Source of the DNA: Octopus vulgaris
Lineage: Eukaryota
Direction: 5' to 3'
Assembly (NCBI GenBank): GCA_951406725.2
Contig: OX597830.1
Location: 73,160,001 to 73,224,000, forward strand
DNA length: 64,000 bases
This document shows, piece by piece, positions 6,149 to 33,195 of the stretch. The position numbers and the translations under genes are program-made. The notes under the pieces were generated by a model, which saw only the letters and a list, made by a program, of their open reading frames with translations, made no database searches and was not told the origin of the DNA. Position 1 is the stretch's first letter. Every line of letters begins with the position of its first letter.

Positions 6149-6228
6149 CATCTTACGATCGTTTCGCAGAAGAATTGTCCCTATAATGAAATCCTATATT
6201 GATAAGCATTTATAGACAACCCTTCTGC
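6149..6228 (-). ncRNA. Truncated hammerhead-like fold (long stem II, GAA, palindromic stem III; 5' core missing)
   Basis: Minus strand reads GCAGAAGGGTTGTC...GACAATTCTTCTGC (stem II), then GAA ACGATCGT A AGATG. The CUGANGA side is replaced by the adjacent (GA)n tract. Confidence 0.4.
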
Positions 6229-7223
6229 TTTCTCTCTCTCTCTCTCTCTCTTACATATATATATATATATATATATATATATATATCTCTCTCTCTCTCT
6301 CTCTCTCTCTCTCTCTATATATATATATATATATATATATATATATATATATATATATATATATATATATATATATATATATATATATGTATGTATATAT
6401 GTATGTATATATTTATGTATATATATATACCGGTGGCGACCCAGTATATATTTTATTGAGCCTGGTCGCAGTTCGTTTATTTTCGTTCAAGGTCTAGCGG
6501 TCGTCTTACAGATGCACTGTGTCAAAAAATATTCGTAGCCGACGTTCTCTCGACATCATTCACACGCACCTGACACGGGCTCAGAAGTTACAGCACGAGT
6601 TGTTATCTATGATAGTGAAAATTAAATGTAATTCAAATTCAATGTTTTCTTGAAACTACAAACTTATTTCTATAGAGATTAGAATTTAAATGAAAAGCGT
6701 CCGTTCTACAATATTCTTAAAGGAACGAACAATTATCCAGCACACGAACAAATTTGGCAGGTGTAAAAGACTAACAAGCATCTCTTGTCTTCTTAACAGG
6801 CGACACTCCGCTGTCACATTTGATTGCTGCTATTCTGGCGTCTGTGTCTAAAGATCAGTTGAGTGTTGCAGGGTTGCTTTATTTTTACTGTTACCTTAGA
6901 AATGGAGAAAAGCATAGTGCTATATATATATATATAAAGCCATTTGGGGCCGGAAATATTGCAGAAAAACATGAAACTCTTCGAGCAGGCTTGGGTCTTA
7001 TGCGAAATCTATGAAGAGCCCGAATTGCAAAATCTGTGACGAGCGCAACTAACATTGATGACCTGGGGATGTCTCTGATATATATATATATATATATATA
7101 TATATATATATATGTATGTATATATATATATGTATGTATGTATGTATGTATATATGTATGTATATATATATATATATATATATATATATATATATATATA
7201 TATATATATATATATATATATAT

Positions 7224-7447
7224 AATAAATAGTTAATCCAAACATGAAAACACAAAGAGAAAACACAACAACGCGAGGACGTGGAACGAATATAGTATTA
7301 TTGGATGCTCAGGAAAGAAGGGAAGAAGGAGGGTTTAACGTTTCGAGCGGAGCTCTTCGTCAGAAACATAGGAAAAAGTAAAAATCCAGAGAAGGGAAGA
7401 CAGAGGGAAAAAAATCCCCAACGGTACACACGGAGTCACATTTATGT
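7224..7447 (-). mobile_element. (TA)n-embedded Penelope-like pseudo-LTR fragment with hammerhead motif
   Basis: About 220 bp of complex sequence between two (TA)n tracts; contains the hammerhead at 7333-7367. It shares the blocks GAGAAAACACAACAA, GA(T/C)GCTCAG and GCTCTTCGTCAGAAA with 32099-32310. Confidence 0.6.
7333..7367 (-). ncRNA. Minimal type-I hammerhead ribozyme motif
   Basis: Minus strand: GTTT CTGACGA A GAGC TCC GCTC GAA ACGT T AAAC. This gives stem I GTTT/AAAC, an intact core with an extra A after A9, stem II GAGC/GCTC and palindromic stem III. Confidence 0.65.
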
Positions 7448-8263
7448 ATATATATATATATATATATATATATATATATATATATATATATATATATATA
7501 TATATATATATATATATATATATATATTCATAGATATATATAAATATATATATATATATGTGTGTGTGTGTTTGTGTGTGTGTGTGAGAATATATAGGTA
7601 TATATATGCATTTAAGCATGTATACACACACACACAAACATACACACACACATACGCGTGCATGTATCTGCAGATAGAAAGACAATTAGGTAGCTTGCAA
7701 GCTAAATAGATAGATAGACAGATGGACAGACAGACAAGCAAACAGACAGGCAGACAGGCAAGTAGACAAGATAACCCTATCCAATTTGCGTAAAAATAGA
7801 TTCACCATAAAGAAAAAATATGCAAAGACTTTATACCTACATAGCAAATAGGGACTTAAAAGACGATCTCGAATTCATAACAAACAGGGACTTATAAGAT
7901 GCTGAGACAATTAAGAAATGCAAAAATAATGAAAGAAAAACGACAACGTTATAAATATATATATAAAAGAGATCAGTGATCTTTCTTCACAATTATCGTT
8001 TTCGGTTGCCATAGGTATACTAAACAAACGGAAAATTCATGAAGGAATCAAGCAAAAGTTTTAACTGTGGTAGATCAGTTTTTGGTGATGGATAGCGAGT
8101 GTGTATGTGTATGGGTGTGTGTATCTATAAGAATAAACATATATATATATATATATATATATATAGATATAGATGAATGGATAAGTAACTATATATATAT
8201 ATTTATATATATATATATATATATATATATATATATATATATATATATATACATATATATATA

Positions 8264-8362
8264 TCACGTGATCACGTGACCGACCAGACCATCAGATGTA
8301 GTTACACATCGCTGGTCACAATGCGTTCGCATTGTTTTAGCCTTCGAATGACGCCACCCCGC
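8264..8362 (-). mobile_element. Short (TA)n-embedded repeat, probably a truncated non-LTR element end (copy 1)
   Basis: Near-identical to 13849-13967. Both copies share the terminus TCACGTGATCACGTGA abutting (TA)n and differ in length at the other end. Strand is inferred from that asymmetry. Confidence 0.55.
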
Positions 8363-31900: not shown

Positions 31901-32098
31901 GTGTGTGTGCGTACGTGTATGGTGTTACGTATTCTATGAGTCTCTGTATACATGTACCTATGTTCTTTCGTCCTCATATATATATATATATGCATGTAAT
32001 GTAAATGTATATGTATATATATATATATATATATATATATGAGTATGGATATCTATCTATATATGTATATCCATATATGTGTATACATGTACATACAT

Positions 32099-32310
32099 TT
32101 AAAAAGAAAAAGAGAAAACACAACAAGAGCCAAACGGGCGTACACGGTGAACGAATTTGACGCTCAGAGAAAGTTTGAAAATAGAGAGGATGTTTCCTTT
32201 AGAAGATAGCTCTTCGTCAGAAAGGCGAAAAAGGAAAAAGTCCAGGGAGAAAGAAAGGGAAGGTCCGTAAAGAGCACAACGTTGAAAATATGGCTGAAAA
32301 ATAGCTGACT
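32099..32310 (-). mobile_element. Microsatellite-embedded relative of the 7224-7447 element, degenerate hammerhead core
   Basis: Minus strand CCTTT CTGACGAAGAGC...GGAAACATCC (32188-32225); stem II is poorly formed. Confidence 0.45.
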
Positions 32311-33157
32311 TTACACACACACACACACATACATACACACATACAGATAGATTTATACATATATACATTCGTACATGCATACATATAAACATACTTACAT
32401 ACGGACATACATGCATACATATCTACACATATATACATACATACGTACGTACGTACATACATACATACATACATACATACATACATATATACATACGTAC
32501 GTACATACGTACGTACATACATACATACATACATACATACATACATACATACATACATACATACATACATACATACATACATACATACATACGTACGTAC
32601 GAACGTACATGTTACTTGCACATAGAAGATTTGTAAGTTATTCCAAAAGTTCTCCATGTGAAATTCCTATGTGAATAGATTGGTATATACACAATTATTA
32701 TATACATCAACACACCACCTCAACCAGGTATATAGAAATACCAGGATCTCTCCTAATTGAAAAAGTCTTGTTGCTTTGTTAGCTGCAATAGAGAAATACT
32801 TCCTGCAAGGTATACCAAACACTGAGATTAAAACAGTGAAATTCAAATTGGATGCCCGTGGTTACAAAGCAACTACACATATGCTTGCAACTATGTGCTC
32901 TGTTTAACCGAAATAATCAGCCTCAGGCATACCAGGGGGTTAAGAAGCCCGATTAGTTACTACGTAGATTCGAGTTCGGTCCCACTGCGCGGCACTTTGG
33001 TTACATGTTGTATATTATAGCACCGGGTCAGCCAATTCTTTGTGAGTGAATTTGAGAGACAGAAACTGAGTATTTTCCAGTCATTCGCCATGTTGGATCA
33101 CTGAAATCAATACGTTCTTATTTTTTCATTCTCTCACTCTCTTTATTTTCTCTTGCA

Positions 33158-33195
33158 TCTTTTTGTTGAAGAGCGTAAGCTCGAAACGTAAAAGA
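33158..33195 (+). ncRNA. Minimal hammerhead-like fold with variant core
   Basis: TCTTT TTGTTGA A GAGC GTAA GCTC GAA ACGT A AAAGA: 5-bp stem I, GNRA-capped stem II, palindromic stem III and GUA triplet. The core is UUGUUGA instead of CUGANGA. The host element (33115-33281) ends in (TCTA)n; 3'-end relatives lie at 50662-50710 and 61431-61495. Confidence 0.55.

What the first reader, a model, noticed from the sequence alone, without database searches (positions are those of the whole stretch)
6149..33195. Several distinct microsatellite-embedded elements each carry a minimal hammerhead ribozyme fold
Seen: at least six sequence-distinct short inserts in or beside (TA)n/(TCTA)n tracts share one architecture: stem I, CUGANGA-like core, stem II (often GNRA-capped), GAA, palindromic stem III, NUH, stem I'. 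They are at 6149(-), 7333(-), 18935(+)/18658(-), 19307(-), 25237(+) and 33158(+), plus a weak 32188(-). Stems differ in sequence between families but keep pairing. Known: Penelope-like retroelements carry minimal type-I hammerheads with palindromic stem III in their pseudo-LTRs, thought to act as dimers, and some are microsatellite-associated. Inference: this is a dense, diverse population of microsatellite-targeting ribozyme-bearing retroelement remnants or non-autonomous retrozyme-like elements that standard annotation would mask as simple repeats.
Basis: partly seen in the sequence, partly recalled or inferred. Interest (0 to 1): 0.8.

Follow-up and report, generated by a model that had tools for sequence, protein, structure and literature searches.

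The report
Penelope-type hammerhead repeats in TA microsatellites
These short repeats carry the small self-cutting RNA motif already known from Penelope-type jumping genes; most copies here are broken or cut short, and one family is a roughly 480-base non-coding unit that joins head to tail, like the known animal 'retrozymes'.

Summary
The motifs are real, but fewer are intact than claimed. With an exact-core descriptor, 4 sites pass: 7333, 25237 and 18935/18658, the last two being one fold-back insertion. Shuffles give a mean of 0.003 hits, 0 of 300 reaching 4. 33158, 19307 and 32188 are damaged copies. 6149 keeps a 15-bp stem II but has lost its CUGANGA half. There are about five lineages, not six or more.

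The form matches the published minimal hammerheads of Penelope-like elements (PLEs). The same motif lies downstream of PLE endonuclease remains in 4 of 120 foreign loci. The window itself shows no RT or GIY-YIG remnant.

Public contigs show the 18935 family is an ORF-less unit of about 480 nt that closes head to tail, occurs under five organism labels, and has compensatory stem changes in a subfamily. Many copies end at an internal TA tract. Best reading: 3' fragments of PLEs plus one non-autonomous, retrozyme-like derivative, inserted into (TA)n. Cleavage and circular RNA are untested. The scan has noted this kind on other genomes.

The parts
6149..6228 (-). 5'-truncated minimal hammerhead: 15-bp stem II (6166-6228, G10.1-C11.1), GAA, 8-nt palindrome, GUA triplet; core 5' half replaced by a (GA)n tract
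7225..7446 (-). 222-nt element flanked by (TA)n on both sides
7333..7367 (-). complete minimal type I hammerhead (C3-G8 core, unpaired A, G10.1-C11.1, ACGU palindrome)
   Evidence: tier T1
18400..18819 (-). left copy: 420 nt of a unit of about 480 nt, including a 3' extension (18400-18522) beyond an internal TA-like tract; ends in TA repeats
18658..18715 (-). hammerhead of the left copy (exact core, U.U at 10.1-11.1, 11-nt near-palindrome)
18820..19123 (+). right copy, head to head with the left copy; 18820-18830 is family sequence, not a foreign spacer; ends at the internal TA-like tract and runs into (TA)n
   Evidence: (loose end at 18819 in X7)
18935..18992 (+). hammerhead of the right copy, identical to the left one
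19206..19355 (-). short element between TA tracts; damaged hammerhead at about 19307-19354 (C at position 4, 2-bp stem II, bulged stem I, 9-nt near-palindrome)
   Evidence: tier T3
25171..25325 (+). short element between TA tracts; hammerhead at 25237-25281 with the U3-A8 core variant and U.U at 10.1-11.1
   Evidence: tier T2
32098..32290 (-). decayed relative of the 7333 element: core kept (32214-32220), stems II and III damaged; boundaries approximate
33158..33195 (+). decayed hammerhead (two core mismatches; stem I 5 bp, stem II 4 bp with GNRA loop, ACGU); element ends about 85 nt later in (ATCT)n
   Evidence: tier T4
1086..1212 (+). further copy of the 19307 family, same 3' end at (TA)n, 5' end cut within stem III and folded back
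12701..12786 (-). further, more decayed copy of the 19307 family without the ribozyme
   Evidence: 76% over 89 nt, E 2e-10

Best explanation
The inserts are products of Penelope-like retrotransposition into microsatellites. Most are 5'-truncated 3' ends carrying the pseudo-LTR hammerhead, now decaying. The 18935 family is a non-autonomous derivative: an ORF-less unit of about 480 nt, with one hammerhead, that exists head to tail. Mechanism, mostly inferred: a transcript through tandem units brings two hammerheads together, their palindromic stems III pair, and cleavage frees unit-length RNA. A PLE RT/GIY-YIG protein supplied in trans (most likely Neptune-type) nicks (TA)n and starts copying at a TA-like tract in the RNA. 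This gives fixed 3' ends in microsatellites, variable 5' ends, fold-back inversions, and an extension on one arm only. Shown: motif, enrichment, repeat nature, closed unit, copy ends, subfamily covariation. Inferred: the parent element, cleavage, dimer use, priming, RNA circles.
For: (1) Enrichment over shuffles. (2) Features match PMC4209133: palindromic 15.2-16.2/loop 3, unpaired nucleotide after A9, G10.1-C11.1 (at 7333, 33158, 6149), the U3-A8 variant (25237), many families of single motifs. The palindromes self-pair as dimers at -7 to -12 kcal/mol in 4 of 6 sites and -1.7 for the two ACGU sites. (3) The core + stem II + ACGU pattern of 7333/33158 gave 120 metagenome loci. In 4 of 120, PLE endonuclease-region remains lie 125-677 nt upstream on the same strand. 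L024 holds RT (PF00078) followed by a CxxCxxC linker and a GIY-YIG-type region (homologues carry PF26215 and PF01541). (4): 2497, 1262, 6 and 42 contigs laid from four runs. A joint 18819 to 18400 with 62 letters between appears in X2 and X10. X2 record 17 is 510 nt and its two pieces overlap by 30 nt, which I read as a closed assembly loop of about 480 nt. A diverged 511-nt contig (X2 record 21) has the same circular order. In X1, 42 contigs leave the unit at 18523 into TA repeats, as the right arm does. (5) One X10 contig (depth 8.09) changes the stem I base pair G-C to A-U and 10.1-11.1 from U.U to G-C; the stem I changes also occur at about 1% in X1 and X7. The two common variants inside the motif fall on N7 and on the N of the GNRA loop. 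(6) Inverted copy plus one-sided tail is the PLE insertion signature, and (TA)n bias is described for Naiad and Neptune elements (PMC8557442); internal RT initiation explains tails (PMC11167929). (7) No frame over 47 codons in the 433 nt examined.
Against: No RT, GIY-YIG or PF26215 match in 257 window frames, nor with a profile of 62 PLE proteins over 2079 frames; the best hit, E 0.039 at 54320, is far from any site and looks compositional. The 120 foreign loci show no DNA homology to the window, 116 of 120 show no clear PLE ORF, and only 4 of 121 motifs have a microsatellite within 250 nt downstream. They link the motif type, not these families, to PLEs. Stem I in those loci is mostly 2-3 bp (4 bp or more in 9 of 68 contexts; permutation mean 2.7, max 8). 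The covarying contig also has U4 and G5 changed, so it is itself probably a dead copy, and it is one contig. The head-to-tail joint is listed only in the two shallow runs, not in X1 or X7, and 62 letters of the unit were mostly not seen. U.U at 10.1-11.1 departs from the conserved G-C pair and may impair cleavage. Monomer folds of the motifs are not better than shuffles, apart from 6149. Family-level data exist for one family only. X10 is RNA only by guess.
Confidence: 0.75

Rival explanations
1. All families, the 18935 one included, are only truncated pseudo-LTR ends of autonomous PLEs. The closed contig comes from frequent partial tandem insertions, not from a self-propagating non-autonomous unit.
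For: PLEs insert as partial tandems (PMC8557442, PMC6765202). The joint was listed in 2 of 4 runs only. A low-copy ORF branch would be missed in shallow runs.
Against: Two diverged contigs of 510 and 511 nt keep the same circular order, and X2 record 17 is unbranched. No loose end pointing to coding sequence was among the 22 rows shown (143 were not shown).
Confidence: 0.15
2. The 480-nt unit is a satellite or SINE-like repeat spread by DNA-level mechanisms or by a non-PLE retrotransposon (such as an R4/Dong or Tx1 type that targets simple repeats; recalled, not tested), with a vestigial hammerhead.
For: No PLE ORF in the window; U.U at a conserved pair; in the 2026 preprint only 1 of 9 tested retrozyme dimers cleaved, and the PAc hammerhead was not needed for insertion in vitro (PMC11167929).
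Against: Fold-back inversion with a one-sided tail, fixed 3' ends with variable 5' ends and the min-HHR form all point to PLE chemistry. ARAGORN finds no tRNA head in the window.
Confidence: 0.07
3. The motifs are chance matches in AT-rich, palindrome-prone DNA.
For: Loose tiers equal the shuffled rate (T5, T6). 19307, 32188 and 6149 cannot be called by descriptor alone.
Against: T1, T2 and T4 exceed all 300 shuffles. Family homology and covariation support the weaker sites.
Confidence: 0.03

Closest known systems
Minimal hammerheads (min-HHR) in pseudo-LTRs of metazoan Penelope-like elements (Cervera & De la Pena 2014, PMC4209133)
   Same: Type I topology, palindromic helix III suited to dimers, unpaired nucleotide after A9, U3-A8 variant, many sequence families, mostly solo and decayed, some pairs on opposite strands 100-700 bp apart.
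   Different: Two families here have U.U instead of G10.1-C11.1, stems I of 6-7 bp and palindromes of 6-11 nt. No parent ORF was found here.
Metazoan non-LTR retrozymes (Cervera & de la Pena 2020, PMC7229834; Li, Clavereau & Pollet 2026, bioRxiv 10.64898/2026.07.22.740005)
   Same: ORF-less unit, one type I hammerhead per unit, head-to-tail joint, low GC, dispersed monomers; proposed to derive from PLE pseudo-LTRs.
   Different: Unit of about 480 nt against about 170-400 nt; PLE-type rather than canonical hammerhead; copies end in (TA)n at an internal TA tract; circular RNA not shown.
Neptune-clade PLEs (as described in PMC8557442)
   Same: Microsatellite insertion bias, inverted 5'-truncated copy, tail on one end, hammerhead downstream of the endonuclease (as in L024).
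   Different: The tail here is about 125 nt rather than 30-40 nt. The clade of the mobilising element is inferred only. Naiads also prefer (TA)n but lack canonical hammerheads.

Membership tests
PLE min-HHR | Conserved core C3-G8 or U3-A8 plus GAAA and NUH | tested here: met
   Exact at 7333, 18935/18658 and 25237; broken or missing at 33158, 19307, 6149; 3' half damaged at 32188
PLE min-HHR | Palindromic helix III | tested here: met
   6 of 7 independent sites; lost at 32188
PLE min-HHR | Unpaired nucleotide after A9 and G10.1-C11.1 | tested here: inconclusive
   Met at 7333 and 33158; G-C closure at 6149; U.U at 18935 and 25237, though a subfamily contig of 18935 has G-C
PLE min-HHR | Covariation within families | tested here: inconclusive
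   Two-sided changes at two pairs in one diverged contig, stem I changes at about 1% in two deep runs; other families not sampled
PLE min-HHR | Self-cleavage as dimer | not testable with these tools
   Only duplex energies computed
Penelope-like element (autonomous) | RT + GIY-YIG ORF linked to the terminal repeat | tested here: not met
   None in the window; no whole genome held, so a parent elsewhere is untested
Penelope-like element (autonomous) | Inverted truncated copy and one-sided tail | tested here: met
   18400-19123; fold-back also at 1086
Non-LTR retrozyme | Short ORF-less unit with one type I hammerhead | tested here: met
   About 480 nt, 433 nt examined without a frame over 47 codons; longer than published units
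Non-LTR retrozyme | Genomic tandem array of two or more units | tested here: inconclusive
   Head-to-tail joint in contigs of X2 and X10; no tandem copy in the window
Non-LTR retrozyme | Expressed unit-length linear and circular RNA | not testable with these tools
   Only contigs were available and RNA status is a guess

The most novel reading that the evidence does not exclude
The 18935 family is a young, active retrozyme of about 480 nt. It uses a PLE-type dimer hammerhead that works despite U.U at 10.1-11.1, accumulates as circular RNA, and primes its own insertion by annealing internal TA-like tracts to nicked (TA)n. It would then carry a microsatellite-targeting guide in its RNA, as Athena elements carry telomere repeats, and a set of such elements could help seed and extend the dense microsatellites of this genome.
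Probability: 0.25. Interest if true: 0.6.

Novelty: new member of a known kind. Interest (0 to 1): 0.3.

Why it matters
The motif class, its abundance and its link to PLEs are published, so most of the finding is ordinary. What is useful is a concrete, young, multi-organism family that sits between PLE terminal repeats and retrozymes. It offers a direct test of whether PLE-type minimal hammerheads cleave and circularise in vivo, whether G10.1-C11.1 can be replaced by U.U, and how microsatellite targeting is primed. It also shows that Rfam scans miss these motifs. My paper searches found no description of such elements in cephalopods (the giant squid genome paper only counts 235 Rfam hammerhead matches), but repeat databases and most subscription papers could not be searched.

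Tried and rejected
First descriptor demanded a 10.1-11.1 pair right after A9 and a looped stem III and found nothing; too strict. Rfam on the whole window was swamped by microsatellite-miRNA matches: 150 of 684 rows shown, no hammerhead among them. No whole genome is held. The exact 18935-family pattern found 0 metagenome stretches; the degenerate 7333-type pattern found 0 viral contigs. Extra candidates were rejected as unsupported: 23756, 45183 and 50860 (loose tiers only), 16570 (fold worse than all 200 shuffles), 7985 (13-nt palindrome, no core, fold not significant), 1126 (product of the fold-back). Families 18935, 25237 and 19307 do not align convincingly (55% with motifs out of register). 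The weak PLE-profile hit at 54320-54499 was judged compositional. Summed contig depths were not used as copy number. A long-read fold-back artefact is unlikely because short-read contigs of X7 cover the junction 18820-18836 (depth 21.5), though X7 may be the source sample. The killifish Neptune paper held nothing relevant. Lunse et al. on PLE hammerhead dimers was not held and is known to me only through the review PMC6765202; it may already describe the U.U variants.

Full report
Setting. The window is AT-rich animal DNA (GC 0.21-0.43 per 2 kb) with 249 tandem-repeat rows; my mask covers 9127 of 64000 bases. It holds SINE-like families, a Tc1/mariner element and a Hox-like exon. From recall, the SINE-like repeats look like those of octopuses; no call names the organism, and no whole genome is held.

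The observation. I scanned both strands with graded descriptors based on Cervera & De la Pena 2014 and compared them with 300 block-wise dinucleotide shuffles that left microsatellites in place (40 shuffles for T6). T1 (exact C3-G8 or U3-A8 core, stems I and II of 4 bp or more, palindromic stem III) gives 1 hit, 7333; shuffles give 0. T2, which also allows a 1x1 mismatch at the base of stem II (added after seeing the sites), gives 4 hits (7333, 18935, 18658, 25237) against a mean of 0.003. T4 (two core mismatches) adds 33158: 5 hits against 0.33. T3 adds 19307 but also two likely chance hits: 7 against 1.05. T5 and T6 are at chance (9 vs 6.8; 33 vs 32.8). The reversed window gives 0 at the T2 and T4 settings. 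18935 and 18658 are arms of one inverted insertion, identical over 291 nt. 32188 keeps the core but has damaged stems II and III and is a flank relative of 7333, as is 33158. 6149 lacks the CUGANGA half but has a 15-bp stem II closed by G-C just before GAA and an 8-nt palindrome (z -5.77). So 3 of 7 independent sites have an intact exact core, and the sites fall into about five lineages. Rfam finds no hammerhead at E up to 10 in the two stretches tested.

No coding partner in the window. Pfam on all 256 filtered frames of 45 aa or more starting before 39000, plus one later frame (354 passed the filter window-wide), gave only the Tc1 transposase and weak unrelated hits. A profile of 62 PLE proteins over all 2079 frames of 20 aa or more gave a best E of 0.039, at 54320-54499, far from the sites and probably compositional.

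The motif type in other DNA. The core + stem II + ACGU pattern of 7333/33158 matched 120 metagenome loci (121 motifs; flanks fully fetched for 80). None is homologous to the window. Four of 120 (L024, L006, L070, L082) carry PLE endonuclease-region remains 125-677 nt upstream on the same strand; two more have weak hits (E 0.007); 72 of 121 motifs had 400 nt or more upstream to examine. L024 shows RT, a CxxCxxC linker and a GIY-YIG-type region in Neptune order. Stem I, which was not in the pattern, is mostly 2-3 bp there (4 bp or more in 9 of 68 contexts; permutations mean 2.7, max 8). Only 4 of 121 have a microsatellite within 250 nt downstream, so that link is a property of this genome's families, not of the motif.

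The 18935 family in public runs. Eighteen runs hold half or more of the sampled words of 18831-19120, under five organism labels. Laying four runs on 18400-18836 gave 2497, 1262, 6 and 42 contigs, so it is a repeat family. In X2 and X10 a contig joins 18819 back to 18400 with 62 letters between. X2 record 17 is 510 nt and covers 18529-18558 at both ends; I read this 30-nt overlap as a closed assembly loop of about 480 nt. A diverged 511-nt contig keeps the same circular order. Hence 18400-18522 is part of the unit. The left copy carries it, while the right copy stops at the TA-like tract near 18523 and runs into (TA)n, as 42 contigs of X1 do. The 11 nt between the arms are family sequence (X7 loose end at 18819), so the insertion is a fold-back. 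One X10 contig changes the stem I closing pair G-C to A-U and 10.1-11.1 from U.U to G-C, with a re-written stem II; its U4 and G5 are also changed, so it is probably a dead copy. The only variants above 5% inside the motif in the deep runs are N7 (6-9%) and the N of the GNRA loop (42-67%). The 422 nt fold modestly better than shuffles (z -2.53). Limits: contigs cannot separate tandem DNA from circular RNA, the joint is not listed in the two deep runs, X10 is RNA only by guess, and the other families could not be sampled this way. For the 19307 family, three window copies share the 3' end region and differ at the 5' end, one with a fold-back.

How it most likely works. Shown: motif, enrichment, repeat family, closed unit, fixed 3' ends at TA tracts, fold-back with one-sided extension. 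Inferred from known PLE biology: tandem transcripts let two hammerheads pair through their palindromes (duplexes of -7 to -12 kcal/mol for four sites, -1.7 for the two ACGU sites) and cleave; a PLE RT/GIY-YIG protein in trans nicks (TA)n and starts at internal TA-like tracts, leaving truncated copies that then decay. Cleavage may be dispensable for insertion (PMC11167929) and was seen in only 1 of 9 tested retrozyme dimers (2026 preprint), so activity is open.

Comparison. The motifs work like, and by structure belong with, PLE min-HHRs. The inserts are not autonomous PLEs, as no ORF is linked. The 18935 family meets the unit criterion of non-LTR retrozymes, with tandem arrays inconclusive and circular RNA untested; it is longer than published units and bears a PLE-type ribozyme.

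What I read. PMC4209133: parts 1-2 of 4 (abstract, results, discussion, part of methods). bioRxiv 10.64898/2026.07.22.740005: parts 1 and 3 of 5 and passages. PMC7229834: passages and section 14. Passages only: PMC8557442, PMC11167929, PMC13282606, PMC6962438, PMC6765202, PMC12602865. PMC5785218 was not held. I opened no supplements; the motif alignments and family lists there may include these variants. Searches found no paper on cephalopod hammerhead elements beyond a count of Rfam matches in the giant squid. Earlier notes of this scan report the same kind on other genomes; none resembles this sequence.

Verdict. Observation partly confirmed, interpretation partly supported; new members of a known kind, with one family worth a bench test. 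Interest 0.3.

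Noticed in passing
window 26701-26816(+), 27835-27950(+), 59771-59878(-): A TA-adjacent family (81% mean column identity) carries CUGA(A/U)GA and, about 11 nt on, GAA followed by UGUC. These look like hammerhead halves, but there is no A15.1 palindrome and no stem I; the copy at 26753-26879 has a 63-nt partial tandem. 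A degenerate or different ribozyme; unexplained.
   Followed up: partly
window 8265-8363 and 13850-13948: A 99-nt element with three hairpins, 97% identical copies, each starting right after (TA)n; no hammerhead core; fold z -1.85.
   Followed up: partly
window about 46160-46240: Another fold-back insertion (long near-perfect hairpin, z -9) in an element between TA tracts, turning at a GAAAC motif.
   Followed up: partly
window 14460-16102: Tc1/mariner element with inverted ends of 231-274 nt (91-93%) and a transposase split over several frames (HTH_Tnp_Tc3_2, DDE_3), set in TA repeats.
   Followed up: partly
window 41565-42899(+): 444-aa low-complexity frame ending in a YPWM hexapeptide just before a GT donor; probably the first exon of a Hox gene (atlas look-alikes Hox/Ubx at 0.91, weak evidence).
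   Followed up: partly
window 24845-25026, 25670-26016, 28300-28812 and others: SINE-like family occurring as 185-nt partial tandems (2.5 units at 28354-28811).
   Followed up: no
window 2484-3063: Mariner-like remnant by eye (short terminal repeats and transposase-like codons); no Pfam hit at E 0.01.
   Followed up: no
window 33879-34094 and 34739-34954: Inverted pair at 76% over 217 nt, perhaps an old MITE.
   Followed up: no
L059:2351-2382: The hammerhead-like pattern lies near bacterial-type genes (PEP-utilising enzyme, DUF3419) with no stem I; probably chance.
   Followed up: no
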